NCBI GenBank assembly: GCA_963704345.1
Contig: OY969890.1
Span: 1,210,095 to 1,274,094, forward strand
Direction: 5' to 3'
DNA from: an uncultured Solirubrobacterales bacterium
GTDB taxonomy: Bacteria; Actinomycetota; Thermoleophilia; Solirubrobacterales; Solirubrobacteraceae
Length of the DNA: 64,000 nt
The notes beneath the pieces are model-generated. The model had not been told where the DNA came from and ran no database searches. It saw only the letters and a program-made list of their open reading frames with translations. Below are positions 7,874 through 64,000 of the stretch, piece after piece; the first letter of the stretch is position 1, and each line of letters begins with the position of its first letter. The position numbers were made by a program, and so were the translations under genes.

Positions 7874-10630
7874 ATGAGCGGGAAGGGATCACAGGACCCC
7901 AGGCCGCTGATCGTGGTCGTTGCCGGGCTGATCGTCGCGTCGCTGCTCGGTGGCGCTGGCAGCTCGCACCTCGCCGCAGTAGAACGCGCCGGTCGGGTGC
8001 TGCCGGTGGTGTTGATCGCCGTATCGGCCCTCGGTTCGGTCGCGCTGATCTGTCGGATGGTTGTGACGCGAAGGGCGCTCGCTTCTCGGACTCGGCTCGT
8101 CGTTCTCGCGCCCGACTCGTTCGATCCGTCGCTCGATGCGGTGCTGCGTTGCGCTGCGCAGCTCTCGCGTGTGCGGAGGCTCGTCGGCGGTTGGCTTGAT
8201 CCGCGGGCGAGGGCAGTTCGGATACTGCTCGATTGCGACGAGCAAGGCCGGATGCGCTACTCACTGAGCGTGCCCGAGCGGGCGCTGCCAGCGGTCCGCG
8301 CAGCGGTCGGCGTGTTCGACCGTGTCCAGCTTCAGGTCATCGAGCCGAACGCGGAGCCGGCCAGGGAGGCGGATCGGTGTGTTGAGGTTGTGCGGGCTGA
8401 GCTTCGGCTCGCGCGGCCGAGCAGTGAACCGCTCGCGCACCTCCCGCTGACACCCGATCCGTTGCAGAGCTTCGCGAGGGTGCTCTCCCGGCTCGATCCG
8501 GTGCACCACGAGCAAGCGGAAGTCGCCGTCGATCTGTTGCCGACGACGGCAGCTACACGAAGGCGGCTCCGTCGCAGGCTGCTCAAGGAGGCTCTGCGTC
8601 GCGGCGGCCAATCGAGCGAGCCGAGCTGGGGTGGTGGTTTGCTTGATTTCGACTCTGGGCCTGTCGGGCGTCGGCGGCCTGCGGAAATGGTCGAGCAGCG
8701 CGCCGAGCGTGAGGAGATCGCGGCGAAGCTCGTGCAGGCCGAGCCTCTGTTCCGGCTGCAGGTTCTGATCCGCTGCTCATCGCAAGAGCGAGGAAGAGCA
8801 GTCGCGTGCCTGCAAGGGCTGCTCGGCTGCTTCGACGGGTTTGCTGGCGCTAACTCGCTGCGCGTCGTGGGCGTCAGGTTCCTCGGGCTGGCGTTCGCGG
8901 GATCTGACCTTCCAGGCCGACGGGGCTGGTTCGACCGCCGGATACGAACGGGCCTGTTTCGCCCCGGTCATTGTGACTACGTGACCGCGAGGGAGGTGGC
9001 CGGTCTGCTGAAGCCGCCGACCGTGAAGTGCGCCGCGCCTGAAGTTCTGCGCCTTGGCCCAGCGGTGTATCCAGCGCCAAGGACACTGCCCACGTTTAGA
9101 GGACAGGCGAACCTCGTCCCCCTCGGTAAGGTCGAGGACGAGACCGGGCAGCGCACGATCGGGCTGCGTGTCGAGGACTCGTTCTTCACCTACACCGCCG
9201 GGCGCAGCCGCTGGGGCAAGACCGAGCTTGCGCTCACGCAGTTCCTTCACCTCGTCAGGAGCGGTCACGGCGGGCTGTTCCTCGATCCGCACCAGGACGC
9301 TGTGCAGAGGGTCAAGAGCTGTCTGACCGAGGAAGGGCTCGCCGAGCGCGTCATCGAGCTTGACCTCGTGGGGTCACGCAGCCGCCAGGGGCAGCCGGGA
9401 TGGAACCTCTTTGCCGCGAAGGGCCTCGATCCCGACGCTGCTGAGCGGCGGGTCGAGGCGATCGTTGACAGCTTCGCCTCCGCCTTGCAGTGGTCCGAGC
9501 GCAACAATCGGGCGCTCACGCTGACGACGCAAGCTACCGCCGCGTTGATCGAGCTGGCCGGCGTGCTGCCCGAGGGGCTTCAGCCGACGATTTTCCAGAT
9601 ACCGTCGATTCTGGGGAACCCTGACTGGCTCGCTGCCGCGTTGCCGCACCTCTCCCCGGCGCGGCGCCAGTTCTTTACCGAGCGGTTCCCGAGGCTGTCC
9701 GAAGAGGCGATAACGCCGGTCACGAACCTGATCGACAGGCTGCGCTCCTCGACGCAGCTCGCCGCGCTGCTCGGCGCTCAGTCCACCAGCTACGACATAG
9801 GCCGTGCGATGACCGAAAGGCGGATTGTGCTCGCCTGCCCTGGTGCCGGGGGAGCGAAGGACAAGCTCGTCGCGAACCTACTCGTCTACGACCTCTTGCA
9901 CGGCGCGAAGGGACGCGCGTCGATGGCGCCCGAGCAGCGCCTGCCGTTCTATGTGTTCCTCGATGAGGTCCAGACCTACGACGGTGCCGCAGGAGGGAAC
10001 CTCGCTGCACTGCTGGAGCAGACCGCGAAGTACGGCATCCGCGCAACCCTGCTGAACCAGAACCCGGAGCGGCTGACCAGCGAGACGCTGAACGCGCTCA
10101 CGACCAACCGCAGCCACCTGATCACGACGGCACTCAACGCGCACGCCGCTGCTCTGATCGCACGGGAGTGGGGAGGCGACCCGCCAGCCGCCGCGGTCAC
10201 CGGCCTGCCGCGCTGGACGTTCATCGCGCAGGTCACCCACGAGGGGAAGCAAACCCGGCCGTTCATGTTCACCGGCCACTCAGTCGAGGAGCAGTTCGCC
10301 GACGCCTACAAGCCAGACGCACTAGATAAGGTCCAGGCAACGATCGACAAGGCGTCAGGACGCAAACCGGCCGCCGAGACGGTCGCTGATCTCGACACGT
10401 TGGACGAGCGGATCAAGCAGCACCTCGAAGGACAATCCGGTCGAGGCGGAGGCGCCCGCACTGACCCCGAGGCGCCCTGGACTGCACCCGCGCCGAACGA
10501 GCCTAGTCCTCGGGCGAGCTTGATCGAGCGCGGCCGCGACGAACACTCGACCTCGCATCGTCGCCTTTCGCGTCTCCGGGATAGGCACGCGACGCGACGC
10601 GCTTGGCTGCCCGCTGGGGGACGGTCATGA
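7874..10630 (+). CDS. type IV coupling protein-like (VirD4/TraD) conjugative ATPase
   Basis: N-terminal TM helices, Walker A GRSRWGKT, LFLDPH, Walker B FYVFLDEVQ, LLNQ; start placed at ATG 7874; ATGA overlap with relaxase. Confidence 0.8.
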   Translation: MSGKGSQDPRPLIVVVAGLIVASLLGGAGSSHLAAVERAGRVLPVVLIAVSALGSVALICRMVVTRRALASRTRLVVLAPDSFDPSLDAVLRCAAQLSRVRRLVGGWLDPRARAVRILLDCDEQGRMRYSLSVPERALPAVRAAVGVFDRVQLQVIEPNAEPAREADRCVEVVRAELRLARPSSEPLAHLPLTPDPLQSFARVLSRLDPVHHEQAEVAVDLLPTTAATRRRLRRRLLKEALRRGGQSSEPSWGGGLLDFDSGPVGRRRPAEMVEQRAEREEIAAKLVQAEPLFRLQVLIRCSSQERGRAVACLQGLLGCFDGFAGANSLRVVGVRFLGLAFAGSDLPGRRGWFDRRIRTGLFRPGHCDYVTAREVAGLLKPPTVKCAAPEVLRLGPAVYPAPRTLPTFRGQANLVPLGKVEDETGQRTIGLRVEDSFFTYTAGRSRWGKTELALTQFLHLVRSGHGGLFLDPHQDAVQRVKSCLTEEGLAERVIELDLVGSRSRQGQPGWNLFAAKGLDPDAAERRVEAIVDSFASALQWSERNNRALTLTTQATAALIELAGVLPEGLQPTIFQIPSILGNPDWLAAALPHLSPARRQFFTERFPRLSEEAITPVTNLIDRLRSSTQLAALLGAQSTSYDIGRAMTERRIVLACPGAGGAKDKLVANLLVYDLLHGAKGRASMAPEQRLPFYVFLDEVQTYDGAAGGNLAALLEQTAKYGIRATLLNQNPERLTSETLNALTTNRSHLITTALNAHAAALIAREWGGDPPAAAVTGLPRWTFIAQVTHEGKQTRPFMFTGHSVEEQFADAYKPDALDKVQATIDKASGRKPAAETVADLDTLDERIKQHLEGQSGRGGGARTDPEAPWTAPAPNEPSPRASLIERGRDEHSTSHRRLSRLRDRHATRRAWLPAGGRS

Positions 10631-11544
10631 CCGGGCCTCGCGTGTTGCCGCCAGTCGCCGGGGCAATGCTCGCCGGCATTTATGAGCACAGGCTGCTGAG
10701 CACAATCCAGTTGCACGCGCTCTACACACCACACGCTCAGCCACGCTGGGCTCGACAGGTGCTGACGCTGCTCGAGCTGCGCGGCTTCGTTGATCGCATC
10801 CGAAGCCCCCGGCAGCTATCGCTGTGGTTCCTCACCAACTCCGGAGCCGACGCCGTCGAGGCCGGTGGTGCTCGTGTCGAGTTCCGCCGACGAGTCACCA
10901 GCCGCGAGCAAGCCGAAGGGCCGCTGAAGAAGCACACAATCGCCGTCAATCAGGTCGGCATCGAGTTCGTCCGTGCAGCGCGAGAGCGAGGCGACGAGTG
11001 CGGCCCTGACTCCTGGCGCAACGAGGTCGCGCACCCAATCAGCCAGACACGAGCAGGAAAGCCAGCCGAACTCGTGATCGCAGACGCACTGCTCACATAC
11101 CTACAGACCACCGACGACGGCGCGCTCGCACTGCACCAACGCTTCGTTGAGCTTGACCGCGGCACCCGGACCACGGAGCAACTCGCCGCCAAGATCACCC
11201 GATACGCCCGGCTGCGCCACTATGCGCCGGCCCCCTCGGGCGAGAACCCGCCAGAGCCACTGTGGCGAAACCACTATCGCGCGTGGCCGCACCTTCTAAT
11301 CGTTCTCGCCGACCAATCGCGCGAGACGATGCGCCAGCGAGTACAGCGCACCCTCGCGCTGCAGGCATCGGACCCCGCCGGCCGCGTGGGCCAAATACCC
11401 GTGTCGTTCGTCGCGCTCGATGACCTCTCAGCGCGCGGCCCATACGCACCCATCTTCCTCAACGCCCAACAGCCCGAGCAGCCCATCGACTGGCTCGGCC
11501 AACCACGATCCCAGAAGGAGCAACAGAACGATGGCTTGCGCTAG
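10627..11544 (+). CDS. replication-relaxation (Replic_Relax) family protein
   Basis: HRLLSTIQL, WFLT, HTIAVN, IADALL, FVELDRGT, KITRY motifs; follows coupling protein. Confidence 0.85.
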   Translation: MTGPRVLPPVAGAMLAGIYEHRLLSTIQLHALYTPHAQPRWARQVLTLLELRGFVDRIRSPRQLSLWFLTNSGADAVEAGGARVEFRRRVTSREQAEGPLKKHTIAVNQVGIEFVRAARERGDECGPDSWRNEVAHPISQTRAGKPAELVIADALLTYLQTTDDGALALHQRFVELDRGTRTTEQLAAKITRYARLRHYAPAPSGENPPEPLWRNHYRAWPHLLIVLADQSRETMRQRVQRTLALQASDPAGRVGQIPVSFVALDDLSARGPYAPIFLNAQQPEQPIDWLGQPRSQKEQQNDGLR

Positions 11545-12996: not shown

Positions 12997-14849
12997 ATGG
13001 CACGACCCGCTACAGGCAGAGTGGAAGTCGAGCAACAGGCCGACGGGACACTCAGGTTTCGACTTCGATTCCGAGCAAACGGCAAACGCGAAAGCCAGAT
13101 GCTGCACGAAGCGCGCGACTGCGCGTGTGGATGCGGCGGCGGCTGGACCGAGAACAACGCCCGAATTGAGCTGAACAACGTCCTCGCACGCGTCAAGGCA
13201 GGGATATGGGAGCGACCAAAGCCGGCGCCCACGATCGAAAAGACGTTCAAGGAGATTCCGAGCTTCCACGAGTTCACCTCCTACTGGCTGCAAGCGAAGC
13301 TCGAAGGCACCATCGGCGAGAAGGCGATCTCCACAAACACGCACGCTGGCTATCTGGCCTCGCTTAAAACCACCTACTGCCCTTCTTCGGCCGCTACCGC
13401 CTCGATGAAATCGACAAAGAGCTTTGCAGCGAGTTCAAGAAGCACCTGATCAAAGAGGCGCACGAGCTGAGAGAGGCCCTCGCCGCCGGAGCCGACCTCC
13501 GCGACGAGCACAACCGCACGCTGCGCCCGCTCGCCCCAGCCTCAATACGAGGACAACTCAACCTCCTCGGGCAGATAGTCGAGGAGGCCGTCGAAGAGGA
13601 CCTGATCCCCTTCAACCACGCGCGCAACAAACGGCTGAAGGTCCACGTCCCCAAGCCGAAGCGCACCTTCCTCGAGATGGACGAGTTGGCCTGCGTCGAA
13701 GACGCCGCAGCCGAGCAAGACCCCTCGCTTGAGCGGTTCGCACACACGGCTCGCGAAGCAAGAGACGGATCAACCGCTCAGGCCATCGCGGTCCGCCTCT
13801 CTGAAGGCAAGCGCCAGAAGCAGATCGTCGCCGAACTCGGGGTCGCACCGGGCACCGTCCACTTCCACGTCCGCAAACTCGGTGCTGTGGGTCTCGGTGT
13901 CTACGTTGGGCGCAAGGCGATCGTCCGCACCCTCGGTCGCGCTGGCGTCCGAAACGGCGAGCTGTGCGCCATCCAGATCGGCCACGCGCGTCTGCACGAC
14001 GTCAACAACGCCCGCCTCGATATCCCCGACTCAAAGACAGAAACCGGCATCCGCGTCCTGGAGCTGAGCCCGGAGCTAGCCGAAGCACTCATCGAGCACA
14101 TCGGCCGACTCGCCCGAGCCGGCAACGACACGAGCCCAACGGCTCCCCTCTTCCAGAACGAACGCGGCGGGAAGATGACCCGCAAGGCCGTCGGCAAAAT
14201 CGTCCGCGAAGCCACGGTGCTCGCCACCGAGAGAATGCAGGAGCTGGGGATGCCCCCGCTGCCGCACATAACGCCGCACAGCTTCCGGCGCACCTACATC
14301 TCGATCCTGCTGCTCGCCAGCGAATTCGACCTCGAATGGGTCAAGAAGCAGGTCGGCCACGCCGACTCGAAGATGACGCTCGAGGTTTACAACCAGCTAC
14401 AGCAGCGCGTCAAGCGCGAGCACGGCGCAGCGTTCGACCGGCTCATCCGTGAGGCCCGTAAGCGGCTACACGCCAGCCAGGAGCCGCCACCAGGCGCCAG
14501 CAAGCCCGACACCGACGGGGTTTGTGCCGAGGTTTGTGTCGAGCCCGCGAAAACACCCACCAAACCCCGTCCTCCGCGCCGTCCAGGTCGTGCCCAAAAC
14601 CTAGCGATTAGCAGCAGAAACGGCGGGAGCCGGCGACGCGACTCGGCTTCTGGGCATAAATGTTTTCAGTCGTGTGCTCTACCAACTGAGCTATCTCGCC
14701 GCGAAGTCCGATGCTACCGGCTCGCGGGCGGTCACTGCCGGGCCACCCAGGCCACGTCGCGCCTGCCAAGGGACGGGGCCCTTGGCTCTCCCGGTCGTGT
14801 CAGCCCTCAGGCTGCCGCGCGCTGGAATTCCTCCACGAGCGCGGCGTAG
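12997..14849 (+). CDS. tyrosine recombinase/integrase, frameshift near 13365
   Basis: Catalytic R (GVRNGE), K (DSKT), HSFRR, VGH, Y; N-terminal ORF 12997-13449 joins at an A-run; ORF reads through the att site. Confidence 0.92.
14519..14542. repeat. tandem 12-bp repeat GGTTTGTGYCGA, candidate integrase arm-type sites
   Basis: GGTTTGTGCCGA-GGTTTGTGTCGA about 120 bp from the att core. Confidence 0.5.
14663..14700 (-). tRNA. tRNA-Phe(GAA) 5' half only; att site
   Basis: GGCGAGATAGCTCAGTTGGTAGAGCACACGACTGAAAA = positions 1-38; identity stops at the end of the anticodon loop; TAGCAT -10-like box upstream. Confidence 0.85.
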
Positions 14850-55252: not shown

Positions 55253-55750
55253 TCACGAAGAGGGCGAGCGCAGCGGTCGCAGTGCTGCCTCCACGCGCAC
55301 GAGCTCCGCAAGCATCGCCTCGGCTGAGCTCTCCATCGTCTCGTTTGCCTGAACCTGACCGTCATCGTCGATGAGCCTGGCGACAAACGGAATCGATACC
55401 GCCTCGGTCAGCGGCGTCATCTTCAGCGTCGTCACAACCTGCTTGATCATCTGCGCTGCGCGCGTGCCGGCTGCGACGCCGCCGTAGGAGACCAAACCGA
55501 CCGGCTTGTACAACCACTCCTGGTGCAGGTAGTCGATCGCGTTCTTCAAGGGGGCGTTGAATCCATAGTTGTACTCGGGCATCACAAACACGAAGGCATC
55601 CGCCGCTTCAACCTTCGCGCTCCAATCCTTGGTGTGTTGTTGGGTGTACTGGCGCAAGCGCGGATGGTTGGGCTCATCCACGAAAGGTAGATCGATCTCG
55701 GCGAGATCGGCGACCTCCACGTCGAAGCCGCCATGTGCCCGCGCACGGTG
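55253..55750 (-). pseudogene. NADPH-dependent FMN reductase missing its N-terminal FMN-binding loop
   Basis: PEYNYG, LKNAID, SYGG present; AGGAAGGAG RBS leads straight into ARAHGGFD with no GSTR motif. Confidence 0.7.
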
Positions 55751-55767
55751 TGCTCCTTCCTGGTTGG

Positions 55768-57302
<1,535 letters not shown>

Positions 57303-59259: not shown

Positions 59260-59724
59260 TCACTCGGGCTCCCCGCCGGCCGTACTCGACAGCCACTGAG
59301 GGGGCGTCCAGTCCCCCTCTGGGTCCGTGGTCTGCCCCACCTCGATCAGATGACCGTCGGGATCGCGAATGTAGCAACGGATCTCGTAGGGGTGCTGCTT
59401 TGGCGGCGTCAGGAAATCAGCACCACGGGCGCTCCATTCGGCGTACACGGTCTCGATGTCCTTGACCCGGATATTGAGGAAGCTGCTGACCCGGTCGAGG
59501 TCGCGTGGCGTCTCCAGGGTGACCGCAGGCTTGTCGTCAGTCGGGCCTCCTCCCCGATTAATGACGATCCAGCTGTTGGCGAGCATGACGTTGGTCGGTT
59601 CGCCGGAACGGACCACCGTGCCGCCGAGCACGTCGGTGTAGAAGCGCCGAGAGCGCTCGACGTCGTCCGAGACGATGAAGTGGGTCAGCACGATTCCCTC
59701 TGGCGGCGTTCTCAGTTCGGCCAT
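59260..59724 (-). CDS. VOC family protein (close paralog of 58721-59152)
   Basis: DDVERSRRFY, RDPDGHLIEV. Confidence 0.88.
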   Translation of the reverse strand: MAELRTPPEGIVLTHFIVSDDVERSRRFYTDVLGGTVVRSGEPTNVMLANSWIVINRGGGPTDDKPAVTLETPRDLDRVSSFLNIRVKDIETVYAEWSARGADFLTPPKQHPYEIRCYIRDPDGHLIEVGQTTDPEGDWTPPQWLSSTAGGEPE

Positions 59725-59859
59725 CTGAACCTCCACTAGTTAGATATAGATCGACATTTCGATTTTGACGGTAAATCGATAAGTGTGGTAAGGCTGCTGC
59801 TATCCAGATTGCTGGAAGCTAGGGCTTGATGTGCTTACTGCGCTGGCTCACGTAACGTC

Positions 59860-60393
59860 TTATCGGAGTTCGATGCCGTGACGGCGCAGCCAGGCGTGTG
59901 TACTGTCGATGAGCCTTGGAAGCGCTTGGCGGAGCCGCTCGACGGCGGCGCGCACTTCCTCGGCGTCAACATCCGGTGATGCGTGCTCGAGCCGGCCCTC
60001 CAGGACGTAGATCTCGTTCAGCAGCGCGGCTTGGTCTTTGCTCAGCCCTCTGTCAGCCACTAGTGCCTGAATGACTTGATCGGCGTGTGGGCGACGGTAT
60101 GGGAGCAAGCCGATCAGGCGGGATCCAGCGGCGGCCTTGAGAATCTCGACATAGGCGTTGAGCACGGCCGAGTGATCGCCGGTGACGACCATCGTGCGAT
60201 TGGCGTCGCGGGGCTCGTCGGACTGAAAAGCTCTCCTCCATTCTGCCGGGTCGAGGCGGCCCGCGAAGTTCTCCTCGATCGCCATGTCGAGCGCCTTGCG
60301 ATGCTTGTTGATGGTCTGAAAGAAGCGAGCCAACCGTGCTTGCTCCGCGGCGAGCGCCTTGCTCCCCAGCTTGTCGAGCAGGTCTTCGCTCAC
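59860..60393 (-). CDS. divergent HepT/DUF86-like helical protein
   Basis: Coupled downstream of MNT; EGRLEHASPDVD resembles RNxLxHxYxxVD. Confidence 0.6.
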   Translation of the reverse strand: MSEDLLDKLGSKALAAEQARLARFFQTINKHRKALDMAIEENFAGRLDPAEWRRAFQSDEPRDANRTMVVTGDHSAVLNAYVEILKAAAGSRLIGLLPYRRPHADQVIQALVADRGLSKDQAALLNEIYVLEGRLEHASPDVDAEEVRAAVERLRQALPRLIDSTHAWLRRHGIELR

Positions 60394-60941
60394 GCAGTCA
60401 ACTCCTTGATCGCCAAGGCGGCGTCAGCCATATGGCGATTGTGGGCGCGGCGGGCGCGAGCGGCGATGAGAGAGTGGCTCTCGCACAGTCGATCCCATTG
60501 TCCATCGCGGTCGATCAGGACGCGGCCCTCGTCAAGGACGCGATCCAGCAGAAGCGGCGCCTTGGCCTCTACCCGCTCCAGCTGGGCGACATCGACACGG
60601 CGAGCACTGACGCGCCCAAGACGAGTGGCAAGCTCGTAACCCGCCGATAGGCGATCGTCAGCGAACGAGACCAGGAGGTCCAAATCAGATCCCTCATCCG
60701 CGTCGCCTCGCGCGAGTGAGCCATAGAGCACAGCCAGCCTCACGCGATGCTCGGTGCGCATGGCCTGACGAAGCGCGGATAGAAGCGGCCAATAGGCATG
60801 GAGGTACTCGCGCTCGCCAGGCGCCAGCCACGGCCGGCGCGGTCCAAGTCGGCCAGCGCGTAGCGCGCCCTGAGACATAGCGCGGCGCAAGGTGCGCTCC
60901 TGAACTTCGAGATCGGCTGCCAGCTCCTGAATCACGCCCAT
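60390..60941 (-). CDS. minimal nucleotidyltransferase (MntA-like) with N-terminal HTH
   Basis: LYGSLARG...SDLDLLV, RVDVA; ELAADLEVQERTLRR. Confidence 0.85.
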   Translation of the reverse strand: MGVIQELAADLEVQERTLRRAMSQGALRAGRLGPRRPWLAPGEREYLHAYWPLLSALRQAMRTEHRVRLAVLYGSLARGDADEGSDLDLLVSFADDRLSAGYELATRLGRVSARRVDVAQLERVEAKAPLLLDRVLDEGRVLIDRDGQWDRLCESHSLIAARARRAHNRHMADAALAIKELTA

Positions 60942-61154
60942 ACTGGAGAAGCTACCACGCTGTATGTCCGTTACGCACAGAATCCGCTGCCGGTACGGCA
61001 CTTCTCACGTAGCACGGTGACGATGAGTGCACGCCGAAGCTCGACCTCCCTTGGGCGCCCAGGCAGGTCCGAGTCGAGCCAGGAACCATGATCTCTTTTC
61101 TTCTCGGGCGGTAACCTCGAGCGTAGACCGACCCGCTCATTTGCAGGCAAAAAG

Positions 61155-61200
61155 TGCCCCCGCCAGGAGGCGAACCTGGATCTACCGCTTAGGAGGACGA
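61155..61200 (-). repeat. tRNA-Arg(CCT) 3'-half att repeat, copy 1
   Basis: Reverse complement CTCCTAAGCGGTAGATCCAGGTTCGCCTCCTGGCGGGGGCA (anticodon loop to discriminator). Confidence 0.88.
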
Positions 61201-61403
61201 CCGGCAATATCGCCGAATCGCCCCGTAATCACTAGGCGTGGCAACGTTTTTCGACCGTTCTCGGTCGCGCGCGATACTTGGCGATACGGGCAGATTCGGC
61301 TGGGTTTAGGCAGAGATTTGGGGTTGCTGCCTAAACCCGCGGAGACACATGGACAGGCCGCGTACTACCTGAGACGCCGAGAGGCCCAGGTAGAATTGGA
61401 TCT

Positions 61404-61736
61404 GTGAGTACCGACCCGATCGACCGGCCGAGGATCGCGCACGAGGTCGCGCTGGAGTTGCGCGACATCTATGGGGCTCGCCTCAGAGACGTCGTGCTCT
61501 ACGGCTCGTCCGCTCGGGGTGACGCCCAGCCCGACTCAGACATCGATCTGCTGGTCGTCCTCGACGAGGTTCCCTCGCGTCGCCGCGAGCTGGCACGCAT
61601 GAGCGACGTCCTATGGCGCCACTCGCTCTCCAACGACGTCGTCCTCTCCGAGATCCCCATATCAGTGAACGAGTACCAGGATCATCGCGTCCCTCTGCTC
61701 GAGAGGGTACGTGCCGAGGGCGTCTCTGTAGCGTGA
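61404..61736 (+). CDS. minimal nucleotidyltransferase (MNT)
   Basis: VVLYGSSARG...SDIDLLVV, VRAEGV. Confidence 0.9.
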   Translation: MSTDPIDRPRIAHEVALELRDIYGARLRDVVLYGSSARGDAQPDSDIDLLVVLDEVPSRRRELARMSDVLWRHSLSNDVVLSEIPISVNEYQDHRVPLLERVRAEGVSVA

Positions 61737-62119
61737 GCAAGGATCGCGGCGAAGCACTAATCGCACGCGGCGACACGGAGTTGCTCGCCGCGCGTCACCT
61801 CGAGGAGGCCGGCTTCTCGGCCCAGGCAACCTCCCGCGCTTACTATGCCGCCTTTTATGCGGCGGAGGCTGCGCTCTTGAGCCTTGGCGAGACTCGCTCC
61901 AAGCATTCGGGGGTACTGTCAGCCTTTGGGCTACTCGTAGTCAAGCAGGGTGGCTTTGACCCGAAGCTTGCCGCTGAGTTGCGAAGACTGTTCGAGCTGC
62001 GCAGCATCGCTGACTACATGTTGCTCGACGATATCGAACCCGACGAATACGATCCGATCGACGCGGGGCGCCGGTTCGTGGAGGGTGTAAAGCGTTGGCT
62101 CGGTGGATCAGCTACCTGA
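61733..62119 (+). CDS. HEPN domain protein
   Basis: SRAYYAAFYAA, SKHSGV, LRSIADY; GTGA overlap with MNT. Confidence 0.9.
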   Translation: MSKDRGEALIARGDTELLAARHLEEAGFSAQATSRAYYAAFYAAEAALLSLGETRSKHSGVLSAFGLLVVKQGGFDPKLAAELRRLFELRSIADYMLLDDIEPDEYDPIDAGRRFVEGVKRWLGGSAT

Positions 62120-62523
62120 GGGCCTGCCAGTGCTATCTCGTCCTCGCCCTCTTGTTGGTTGGCTCATCGCGGTCGGTGTACTCGCAAGCTTCATCCTTCG
62201 CGGTGTAGTCGTCGCAGGGATCATCACCGCATTGATTGTCGCCTTTATGCATCCGCCTCACCCGATTTCGATCCTGATGCTGATCGCATTGACCATCTTC
62301 CTGTCGCTCGTCGAGCTTTACCGCAGCGCCCCACAATGGTTTGCCTGGCTCGTCGGGCTTCCTGGCACCAGACGTCGAACACGTCGAGGCCACAGAGGAT
62401 GACCTGCTCGCACAGGTCCGCGAGATCTCGACTCAGCTCGGCAAACTGGAACGAGCACTGTGTGAGCGAACCCACATCGTGGGCGAGGGCCAAACGCGGC
62501 GAGGTCTGCCAGACCGCCGGTAG
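62103..62523 (+). CDS. small membrane protein, possibly with frameshifted coiled-coil tail
   Basis: Hydrophobic ORF 62103-62402; EDDLLAQVREISTQLGKLERAL in the adjacent frame. Confidence 0.45.
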
Positions 62524-62841
62524 CTCACGCGGCAGCGCGATCTGCAACTCCCAGACGCGTTCGGGCGCTGCTGATTGTGCATCAATGGGAACTGGAGCGC
62601 CGCGCAGGGCTTTGACCAACATCTTGGCGCCGCACAGCCAAACGCCAACCCCCGTACCAACAGGCTGAGCACGACAGGAGCTGATTGGCGCAACGCAATT
62701 TGATGAGCAGTGCGCGCGCCAAAACTGTGGTTCAAACACCATGTTTAGGCAGGGAAAAGGCGGTAGTCGGGCACAAATCGTCGGCACTGTTCTCAGCACC
62801 CAGCTCCCCGAAACCGCACCAACACAGAAGATTGAGCCCCA

Positions 62842-62887
62842 TGCCCCCGCCAGGAGTCGAACCTGGATCTACCGCTTAGGAGGACGA
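62842..62887 (-). repeat. tRNA-Arg(CCT) 3'-half att repeat, copy 2
   Basis: Reverse complement CTCCTAAGCGGTAGATCCAGGTTCGACTCCTGGCGGGGGCA. Confidence 0.9.
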
Positions 62888-63209
62888 GGGCCGAATCGGC
62901 TGGCTCGCCGGAATCGCTAGGCACAGCAACGGTTTAGGCCGCCATCTCGGCGGTGTTATGCCCGACGATACGGTGCGATTGGGCTGGGTTTAGGCGGGGG
63001 TTGAGGTCTACCGCCTAAACAGGTTCGCGCTGATCGGCGAAGAGCAAGCCAGAGAATCTAGCTTGGAAGGCTCAAGGTAGATAGGCCTTAGACGCGTAGA
63101 TAGGCGTGTTACGACAGCGAGCATCTCCGAGAGCGTGTCGGGCAGTCGATGGGAGGTGTCCACGCGTCCCCCGAGTCAGTCGGAGGACCGACCGTCTTGG
63201 CGGAGGGCA

Positions 63210-64000
63210 TCAGTGTGCGACGTGTTGCTCTAGGTATTTGACGGTGCTTGCATGATCGTGAAATCGCCCCAGCTCGGTGACCGGGCAGTCCGGGCAATGG
63301 CCACCGTTTAGATCGCTCGGTGACTTGTCGCGGTGCTCGCGCATGTGCCGTAGCGCATCATTGGGATAGTCGGCGCGAATGACATGCCATGTACCATCGA
63401 TCTCCGCTACCGCAAGGAAGTCGGCCGGCGAGCGGGGCGGGTCGATCGCGTCACCGTCGACGCGGACGACGAACAGCCGGTCGAGATGCTGAACCTGATC
63501 GTTGAGTGTCGGGTCTTCATAGTGATCGAGTTCGGGCAAAAGGTCGTCCAGCGGCCCGGGACCCCAGAGCAGATCGCATGGCAAGCTCGTGCATTGAAAG
63601 CCCGGGCGATGGCTGAAGCCCAGCATCGGCATGCCGATGCCGCAGAGATCCTCGGTGGGCGCAGCGAGGTAGACGGCGAACGTTCCGTCCTTAAACGACG
63701 GATCGCCCGCTCGGAGGGAGAGGACACTGGGGAATGTGACACAGCGCTTTCTGTCTGTGGATATAGCGACGACGCGTGGCACCCGTTCGACGGGTGCAGG
63801 GAAGGTCCGGCCGCCGGGCGTGTCAGCACCCCAGAGCTTGTTGATGAATTCCGCGGCGCGACACAATGTTCGGGCCGCCTCAGGAGGCCCAATACGATGA
63901 AAATCCGACGGGTGCGCTGCATGGTGGCGCAGATCGACCGTCGTCCCATCGCTGGCGGCCGAGCGCTGGCCGACAAGTAGCTGCTCGCGCCGTGCCCACA
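63210..64000 (-). CDS. hypothetical protein, 5'-partial, with RxxxxH (RHHAAH) motif
   Basis: Frame of 63210-63866 stays open to the window edge: WARREQLL...DLRHHAAHP. Confidence 0.65.
   Translation of the reverse strand, partial: WARREQLLVGQRSAASDGTTVDLRHHAAHPSDFHRIGPPEAARTLCRAAEFINKLWGADTPGGRTFPAPVERVPRVVAISTDRKRCVTFPSVLSLRAGDPSFKDGTFAVYLAAPTEDLCGIGMPMLGFSHRPGFQCTSLPCDLLWGPGPLDDLLPELDHYEDPTLNDQVQHLDRLFVVRVDGDAIDPPRSPADFLAVAEIDGTWHVIRADYPNDALRHMREHRDKSPSDLNGGHCPDCPVTELGRFHDHASTVKYLEQHVAH

What the first reader, a model, noticed from the sequence alone, without database searches (positions are those of the whole stretch)
61155..64000. Tandem array of integrase-less gene cassettes delimited by tRNA-Arg(CCT) halves (integron-like array at a tRNA)
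Seen: a 46-bp repeat at 61155-61200 and 62842-62887 (one mismatch) is the 3' half of tRNA-Arg(CCT), ending at the 7-nt anticodon loop. Each copy is followed by a homologous but diverged ~135-bp arm. The 1687-bp unit between them holds only MNT, HEPN and a small membrane gene, with no recombinase, and a second unit with unrelated cargo starts at 62888. Established: tyrosine integrases use anticodon loops as 7-bp crossovers and leave 3' tRNA fragments. Inference: minimal non-autonomous cassettes are stacked by a trans-acting integrase, giving a tRNA-anchored cassette array for TA/defence genes.
Basis: partly seen in the sequence, partly recalled or inferred. Interest (0 to 1): 0.85.

Follow-up and report, generated by a model that had tools for sequence, protein, structure and literature searches.

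The report
Shrunken toxin-antitoxin islands stacked at tRNA-Arg
Behind an arginine tRNA gene of a soil actinobacterium, a 1.7-kb integrase-less toxin-antitoxin unit sits beside a 29.5-kb integrase-bearing island; it is a deletion remnant of a larger unit rather than an integron cassette, and such remnants are common across the genus and likely still move between species with a neighbour's integrase.

Summary
The repeats are real but this is not an integron. The genome holds three copies: the intact tRNA-Arg(CCT) lies 29.5 kb beyond the 62842 copy, and that 'second unit' is an ordinary island with an intact tyrosine integrase. The 1687-bp unit keeps matching attL- and attR-type arms and has no recombinase. 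It is a 774-bp deletion derivative of a 2.47-kb unit in a relative; two other species carry different deletions of it. Across the genus, 124 of 359 genomes have extra tRNA fragments; of 167 units analysed, 111 lack an integrase (median 2.8 kb). In integrase islands toxin-antitoxin (TA) genes lie next to attR, and the remnants mostly keep attR arm plus TA (38 of 62 units under 3 kb). The TA pair differs by 1.5-7.5% at fourfold-degenerate sites among species whose rpoB differs by 21-27%, and its position in the array varies, so it moved horizontally. Best reading: tandem accretion with CIME-type decay, TA genes surviving, and occasional mobilisation by related integrases. No circle was seen. The scan noted similar arrays in other genomes before. 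New member of a known kind.

The parts
61155..61196 (-). Outer 3' fragment of tRNA-Arg(CCT), 42 bp (attR core of the 1687-bp unit); anticodon loop 61189-61195 is the inferred crossover
61197..61339 (-). attR-side (P) arm of the 1687-bp unit, with inverted putative integrase arm-type boxes at 61304-61311 and 61329-61336
   Evidence: arm HMM E 3.6e-18; boxes; 70% to the big island's arm
61369..61396 (+). sigma70-like promoter match ending 7 nt before the MNT start (likely leaderless transcript; consensus match only)
   Evidence: 1 found, 0.4 expected
61404..61736 (+). Minimal nucleotidyltransferase (MNT), predicted antitoxin
   Evidence: PF01909 E 6.7e-12; MntA NF047752 32.2 bits, below the cut-off of 60
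61733..62119 (+). HEPN protein, predicted toxin; overlaps the MNT stop
   Evidence: PF05168 E 9.1e-13; PDB 9xbd, 2hsb HEPN matches
62103..62402 (+). Small hydrophobic ORF; its last codons were replaced by the deletion
   Evidence: no Pfam hit; compared with G455_u2
62357..62358 (.). Junction of an about 774-bp internal deletion (2-bp microhomology) relative to the 2470-bp unit of G455
62358..62523 (+). 3' remnant of a potassium-channel-like (Ion_trans_2) gene; intact copies lie next to attL in five integrase islands
62560..62648 (-). Orphan second attL-type arm (other motif type), with no tRNA core: trace of a fused earlier element
   Evidence: left-arm HMM E 9.6e-05; matches left ends of other units
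62729..62841 (-). attL-side (P') arm of the 1687-bp unit, box at 62743-62750, same motif type as the neighbouring island
   Evidence: 74% to the arm after the intact tRNA; HMM E 3.3e-06
62842..62883 (-). Middle 3' tRNA-Arg fragment, identical to the tRNA: attR of the 29.5-kb island and attL core of the 1687-bp unit; loop 62876-62882
62884..63027 (-). attR-side arm of the 29.5-kb island, boxes at 62932, 62988, 63013
   Evidence: HMM E 7.1e-20
63028..64000 (.). Distal end of the 29.5-kb island (413-aa ORF of unknown function from 63210 on the - strand). The island runs beyond the window to the integrase (G000:C1:1300332-1301537) and the intact tRNA-Arg(CCT) (C1:1302434-1302505, - strand)
59860..61154 (-). 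Third, older unit outside the outer repeat: MNT (60390-61001) plus a HepT-fold HEPN (59860-60393). It is a complete att-bounded unit in G730, G555 and G601, but here its right att is lost

Best explanation
The locus is a tandem stack at tRNA-Arg(CCT) made of a 29.5-kb island with an intact tyrosine integrase next to the tRNA and, pushed outward, a 1687-bp integrase-less unit that is a deletion derivative of a longer unit and likely remains excisable and transferable by the neighbouring or a related integrase (a CIME-type element). Steps. (1) Shown by sequence: islands of one Solirubrobacteraceae integrase family recombine at the anticodon loop, restore the tRNA and leave a 42-bp 3' fragment, so the newest element lands next to the tRNA. 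(2) Shown by comparison: these islands carry the integrase near attL and TA genes right beside attR. (3) Shown for this unit, inferred for the class: illegitimate deletions remove the integrase and interior, leaving attR arm plus TA, and in a third of cases also the attL arm. (4) Inferred: TA addiction, and perhaps defence value, protects the attR end from loss, while loss of the attL arm locks the cargo in. (5) Inferred from divergence and order: remnants cross species boundaries, singly or as blocks, by excision with a cognate integrase followed by hitch-hiking with relaxase-bearing family members or another route not identified here.
For: Intact tRNA and integrase with R-K-HxxR-H-Y motifs present. 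Integrase in the attL-side 5 kb in 40 of 42 islands; TA within 1.5 kb of attR in 16 of 20 TA-bearing islands over 6 kb, against 1 of 20 near attL; scanning 253 interior gene clusters added one HEPN only. Integrase-less units: attR arm only 54, attL arm only 2, both 37, none 18 of 111; 26 vs 0 even in distal units. 52 of 94 integrase-less units under 6 kb share at least 300 bp of cargo with an integrase island, 35 of these within 1.5 kb of its attR end. This unit and its relatives: deletions of about 774, 916 and 1026 bp against G455_u2; further length variants in contigs from three of four laid soil-type runs. TA in 38 of 62 units under 3 kb, against 2.6 for random island segments and 24 (16-31) for attR-end segments. 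Integrase islands are first in multi-unit arrays in 15 of 39 cases and distal in 4 of 53 (p 5e-4), the CIME position rule of PMC7563491. Horizontal transfer: TA fourfold-site differences 2/137 to 10/133, rpoB 21-27%. The unit is first in G555, second in G000, G455 and G545, and its order against the HepT-type unit is reversed in G455. The integrase-less G551/G675 unit is 97.7% identical with flanks of 0.89 and 0.48. Left and right arm motifs match in 31 of 37 two-arm units, and this unit's type equals its neighbour's.
Against: No integrase-bearing parent carrying this MNT-HEPN pair was found; its longest relative (2470 bp) is already integrase-less. 42 of 94 small units have no cargo match to an integrase island in this set. 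63 first-position units lack an integrase and 75 of 113 arrays hold no full integrase, more than a simple 'newest is intact' rule predicts. The adjacent island has no gene in the relaxase cluster, so the transfer route is unknown. All genomes are metagenome assemblies, so some cross-species identity could be misassembly. Related islands are not independent, so the p-values overstate. TA labels are Pfam/NCBIfam/fold-based or by adjacency; none was tested.
Confidence: 0.72

Rival explanations
1. A self-sustaining class of minimal non-autonomous cassettes: two-arm TA/defence units of 1-3 kb are the mobile unit and are routinely excised and stacked in trans by family integrases.
For: 37 of 111 integrase-less units keep both arms, with matching motif type in 31. 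Many sit first, next to the tRNA, with no integrase in the array. G551/G675 is near-identical with boundaries at the att sites. The same unit occurs at different array positions.
Against: Each species has its own deletion junction of this unit, so the 1687-bp form itself was not seen twice. 54 units lack the attL arm. Only 8 pairs of integrase-less units matched over 85% or more of their length, two of them from one transferred block.
Confidence: 0.18
2. Dead scars only: the units are immobile remnants, and the close cross-species similarity comes from recent transfer of larger parents that decayed afterwards, or from homologous recombination of whole tRNA-downstream blocks.
For: Independent deletions in G000, G555 and G545. 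G000/G555 share a 2620-bp block across an att site and G443/G753 a 5.3-kb block at 99.4%. No back-joint (circle) among contigs of four runs (contigs drop rare forms).
Against: G551/G675 identity starts at the tRNA and stops at the att core. Matched arm pairs persist. The longest relative of this unit, already integrase-less, is about 96% identical across species with 92-94% rpoB identity.
Confidence: 0.08
3. A true integron-like system, in which one sedentary integrase captures promoterless gene cassettes through single-strand hairpin sites.
For: Array-like look, TA-rich small cargo and variable order.
Against: No RYYYAAC/GTTRRRY boxes at either att region; genes in both orientations, 106 vs 59. 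TIGR02249 53.8 bits against a cut-off of 265. The integrase lies inside its own att-bounded island and varies between arrays. A promoter match lies inside the unit.
Confidence: 0.02

Closest known systems
CIMEs and tandem accretion at ICE/IME att sites in streptococci (PMC5704250, PMC7563491: passages read; Pavlovic 2004 and Bellanger 2011 seen only as reference entries)
   Same: Elements that lost integration and transfer genes by deletion but keep attL/attR; stacked with a functional element; classical CIMEs are 1.2-13 kb; the most decayed ones lie farthest from the target.
   Different: Actinobacterial host and anticodon-loop target. Parents are mostly relaxase-less islands (relaxase cluster in 7 of 42). 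Strong TA-at-attR bias and one-sided loss of the attL arm. Many remnants stand alone or first in the array.
tDNA-integrated genomic islands with 3' fragments and tandem arrays (Islander, PMC4383910: passages read)
   Same: The 29.5-kb unit meets the definition: tRNA, integrase, 3' fragment, anticodon-centred site.
   Different: Islander rejects units under 2 kb or without an integrase, so the remnants described here would be filtered out.
Tycheposon islands of Prochlorococcus (bioRxiv 10.1101/2020.12.28.424599: passages read)
   Same: Successive integration at one tRNA pushes older elements outward and leaves partial tRNAs and degenerate remnants.
   Different: Different host group. No replication or packaging module is seen in this unit. 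Remnants here are compact, TA-centred, with recognisable arms.
Integrons (IntI/attI/attC; defining features recalled)
   Same: Arrays of small variable gene units rich in TA genes, newest next to the entry site.
   Different: No attC, no IntI, island-borne integrase with two-armed att sites, mixed gene orientation, units of 1-6 genes, formed by decay.
Type VII MNT-HEPN toxin-antitoxin modules (PMC11586414: listing and abstract start only)
   Same: Adjacent overlapping MNT and HEPN genes, twice at this locus.
   Different: Below the NCBIfam MntA cut-off; activity untested.

Membership tests
CIME (cis-mobilizable element) | Retains attL and attR | tested here: met
   Both arms and both cores present
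CIME (cis-mobilizable element) | No integrase or transfer genes | tested here: met
   No hit with the integrase-family HMM or Pfam
CIME (cis-mobilizable element) | Derived by deletion from a larger element | tested here: met
   About 774-bp deletion against G455_u2; left part matches the attL ends of integrase islands
CIME (cis-mobilizable element) | Parent is an ICE or IME | tested here: inconclusive
   No direct autonomous parent found; relaxase cluster in 7 of 42 integrase islands, one representative scanned as TrwC/MobF
CIME (cis-mobilizable element) | In tandem with a functional element, distal to the target gene | tested here: met
   tRNA - 29.5-kb island - 1687-bp unit
CIME (cis-mobilizable element) | Co-excision and transfer with the helper | not testable with these tools
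   Only indirect: divergence and order
Integron | IntI-family integrase | tested here: not met
   TIGR02249 53.8 bits vs cut-off 265
Integron | attC sites (RYYYAAC ... GTTRRRY) | tested here: not met
   No such box on either strand at either att region
Integron | Cassettes co-oriented from one sedentary platform | tested here: not met
   106 vs 59 genes in the two orientations in 62 units under 3 kb; integrase inside a mobile island
tDNA genomic island (29.5-kb unit) | tRNA, cognate 3' fragment, tyrosine integrase, 2-200 kb | tested here: met
   criteria from PMC4383910
Tycheposon / phage satellite | Replication or packaging-hijack genes | tested here: not met
   The unit's ORFs give only MNT, HEPN and a channel remnant
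Type VII MNT-HEPN TA | Adjacent MNT and HEPN genes | tested here: met
   second pair by fold, six best PDB matches HEPN-type, Z 10.7-13.6 on a pLDDT 54 model
Type VII MNT-HEPN TA | Toxicity and neutralisation by NMP transfer | not testable with these tools
   No assay; NF047752 below cut-off

The most novel reading that the evidence does not exclude
In this soil genus, decay has produced a standing pool of 1-3 kb, two-armed, integrase-less TA/defence minicassettes that are excised and integrated in trans by a family of motif-matched tRNA integrases and move between species as such. The tRNA-Arg locus would then work as a decentralised integron, with TA modules placed beside attR so that they turn every dying island into a new cassette.
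Probability: 0.3. Interest if true: 0.65.

Novelty: new member of a known kind. Interest (0 to 1): 0.42.

Why it matters
It shows in numbers how tRNA hotspots turn into TA and defence arrays without an integron: islands carry TA beside attR, decay from the integrase end, and leave small remnants that island finders filter out (under 2 kb, no integrase). It gives a testable system, with a cognate integrase, matched arms and a deletion series across species, for two open questions: whether TA systems shape what survives island decay, and whether integrase-less remnants travel between species. The general process is already described in streptococci and Prochlorococcus. I found no paper on it in Solirubrobacteraceae (0 papers) and none on TA placement at attR among the listings.

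Tried and rejected
Circle or empty-site search: four public runs, all contigs, none holding half of the stretch's words, were laid on 59600-63400. The four joints listed are all forward skips and none goes back. Contigs drop rare forms, so this is no evidence either way. Family-wide count with a degenerate pattern: the spacing missed this genus altogether (0 of 13) and matched 50 of 250 other genomes, 4 with two or more copies, so it gives no usable comparison between genera. The DNA search scores at most two candidates per genome and could not count copies. Further tRNA fragments or arms left of 61155: none found by arm HMMs in the window. A sequence search of the second HEPN-like protein against the PDB found nothing, and the protein atlas gave no answer for it or for the island's 551-aa protein. 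BLASTP of that 551-aa protein against the integrase was not significant. One count of integrase positions was faulty and was replaced. Tandem gene duplication was rejected because the units have unrelated content. Left out of the unit set: G598, G710 and the distal part of G579 (7 of 147 planned regions), genomes whose copies lie on different contigs, and G434 (one core under my pattern). Searches for a published integron-like tRNA-fragment cassette system returned only integron, SGI1 and IME papers; the Pelagibacter preprint (two passages read) was not relevant. No supplements were consulted.
Full report
Observation. The direct repeat is at 61155-61200 and 62842-62887, 46 nt and 98% identical. 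The whole genome (one contig, 3.3 Mb) has three full copies; the third is the intact tRNA-Arg(CCT) at C1:1302434-1302505 on the minus strand, 29,498 bp beyond the middle copy. Identity with the tRNA covers positions 31-72, so 42 bp are tRNA-derived and include the 7-nt anticodon loop. In 161 fragments from relatives, identity begins at positions 28-34, mode 31. This is the anticodon-centred site class of tDNA islands (PMC4383910, passages).

The 'second unit' is a normal island. Between the tRNA and the 62842 copy lie a 401-aa tyrosine integrase (PF00589, E 1.2e-21, with SAM-like domains) whose catalytic motifs are present, an Xis-like ORF, an ABC transporter, a P450, a DUF2600 gene, an Mrr-helicase fusion and others. 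None of its 30 called genes falls in the relaxase cluster. Record titles of close integrase relatives read Solirubrobacteraceae or Solirubrobacterales, and relatives of the integrase sit at Arg, Val, Ala and Ile tRNAs.

Anatomy of the 1687-bp unit. It has an attL-side arm (62729-62841, 74% to the arm after the tRNA) and an attR-side arm (61197-61339, 70% to the island's). Both carry the same box type as the neighbouring island. Cargo is an overlapping MNT-HEPN pair with a promoter-like match just upstream, a small hydrophobic ORF, the tail of a potassium-channel-like gene, and an orphan second left arm. A 2470-bp unit in G455 holds the whole channel gene. The window's unit lacks about 774 bp of it, G555 about 916 bp and G545 about 1026 bp; the first two junctions show 2-bp microhomology. 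Contigs from three of four laid runs show length variants at the same place. The unit is therefore decaying independently in each lineage while the TA end persists. Left of the outer repeat, a second MNT with a HepT-fold partner (low-confidence model) is a complete att-bounded unit in G730, G555 and G601; here it has lost its right att.

Genus survey. A 26-base pattern matched 359 of 400 genus genomes. By my count from the table, 124 have two or more copies and 38 three or more, up to six. I fetched 140 of 147 planned regions and cut 167 units from 113 arrays in 111 genomes, this one included. 111 units have no trace of the integrase family, 14 a fragment, and 42 a full or split integrase; median lengths are 2.8 kb and 11.5 kb for integrase-less and integrase units. 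Pfam scans of 228 cluster representatives from the 94 integrase-less units under 6 kb found no site-specific recombinase, only a few IS transposases. TA families per unit were DhiTA-like 14, MNT-HEPN 12, RelA/SpoT-type 6, PIN 6, HicAB 5, Panacea 4, DUF2283 4, AbiE 3 and Fic 1; some partners are labelled by adjacency only. Restriction, Abi, TIR and metabolic genes also occur.

Where the small units come from. In integrase islands the integrase lies within 5 kb of attL in 40 of 42 cases. TA genes lie within 1.5 kb of attR in 16 of 20 TA-bearing islands over 6 kb, and near attL in 1; scanning 253 interior clusters added a single HEPN. Integrase islands keep both arms in 38 of 42 cases. Integrase-less units keep the attR arm only in 54, the attL arm only in 2, both in 37 and neither in 18; the asymmetry holds in distal units, 26 vs 0, and one of 334 mid-unit control windows passed the arm threshold. 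52 of 94 small units share at least 300 bp of cargo with an integrase island, 35 of them at its attR end. TA genes are in 38 of 62 units under 3 kb, against 2.6 expected for random island segments and 24 (16-31) for attR-end segments. In multi-unit arrays, integrase islands are first in 15 of 39 cases and distal in 4 of 53. This matches the three-step model of integration, decay to a CIME and accretion of a newcomer, and the rule that CIMEs lie farthest from the target (PMC5704250 and PMC7563491, passages). Prochlorococcus islands grow in the same way (bioRxiv 2020.12.28.424599, passages). Against a strict version: 63 first-position units have no integrase, 75 of 113 arrays hold no full integrase, 42 of 94 small units have no island match here, and no autonomous parent of this MNT-HEPN pair was found.

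Evidence for movement. The MNT-HEPN genes of G000, G555, G455 and G545 differ at 1.5-7.5% of fourfold-degenerate sites, rpoB at 21-27%. The unit is first in G555 and second in the other three, and its order relative to the HepT-type unit is reversed in G455. An integrase-less 2.8-kb unit is 97.7% identical in G551 and G675, with flanks at 0.89 and 0.48 and identity ending at the att core. G443 and G753 share a 5.3-kb block at 99.4% against 95.9% for rpoB. Arm motifs cluster on the tree of 33 integrases (10 changes against 19.5 shuffled; kin share labels), and left and right types agree in 31 of 37 two-arm remnants. Remnants thus likely move, alone or in blocks. Yet only 8 pairs of integrase-less units matched over most of their length, and the exact 1687-bp form was seen once. 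A relaxase cluster occurs in 7 of 42 integrase islands, a possible vehicle; the route for this unit is unknown. All genomes are metagenome assemblies, and relatedness inflates the statistics.

Integron test. The integrase scores 53.8 bits against a cut-off of 265 for TIGR02249. No attC boxes occur at either site, and genes in small units point both ways, 106 vs 59. It works somewhat like an integron in outcome, but it is not one.

Verdict. Observation partly confirmed; interpretation partly supported. This is tandem accretion with CIME-type remnants, a known kind. It is new for this group as far as my searches reach, and the scan's own notes list similar arrays in at least 52 genomes (unchecked). 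The distinctive additions are the TA-beside-attR layout, the one-sided decay and the cross-species transfer of integrase-less units. Interest 0.42.

Noticed in passing
window:7646-14850: A second, ICE/IME-like island: Replic_Relax relaxase (10603-11544), N6/N4 methyltransferase, Xis-like ORF, a split tyrosine integrase (12997-13449 and 13677-14849), and a 5' fragment of tRNA-Phe at about 14663-14700. The intact tRNA-Phe lies about 13 kb left of the window start, so this is likely a 5'-fragment island.
   Followed up: partly
G000 genome: Other tRNAs also have downstream 3' fragments: Arg(ACG) at +3.7 and +17.2 kb, Arg(CCG) at +17.3 kb with a 46%-identical integrase and similar arms, Ala(CGC) +7.3 kb, Met +4.6 kb, Cys +16.9 kb, Glu +18.3 kb, Lys +30 kb.
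   Followed up: no
L002:11347-13002: 551-aa protein (762 aa in a relative) in the 29.5-kb island, found in 5 islands, with motifs that resemble tyrosine-recombinase catalytic motifs by eye (resemblance recalled). No Pfam or NCBIfam hit and no significant BLASTP match to the integrase.
   Followed up: partly
window:58721-59736: Two convergent glyoxalase/VOC paralogues forming a 77% inverted repeat. With the neighbouring genes to about 55750 they may be remains of older island DNA: the FMN-reductase gene at 55253-55945 follows the last att in several relatives.
   Followed up: partly
window:52169-52468: Tandem 60-bp repeat, about 4-5 copies, inside an ORF on the minus strand.
   Followed up: no
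L002:2883-8868: P450, DUF2600 and ABC transporter (FtsX/MacB) cluster shared by about six integrase islands of the family.
   Followed up: no
L127:640-5322 and L141:5349-6784: CBASS-like genes (SMODS, HORMA, AAA, 4TM effector) in integrase islands at the same tRNA in G752 and G502.
   Followed up: no
L060:709-1748 and related units: A RelA/SpoT-domain gene paired with an unannotated 87-aa gene sits beside attR in 8 units; a candidate small-alarmone TA pair with an uncharacterised partner.
   Followed up: no
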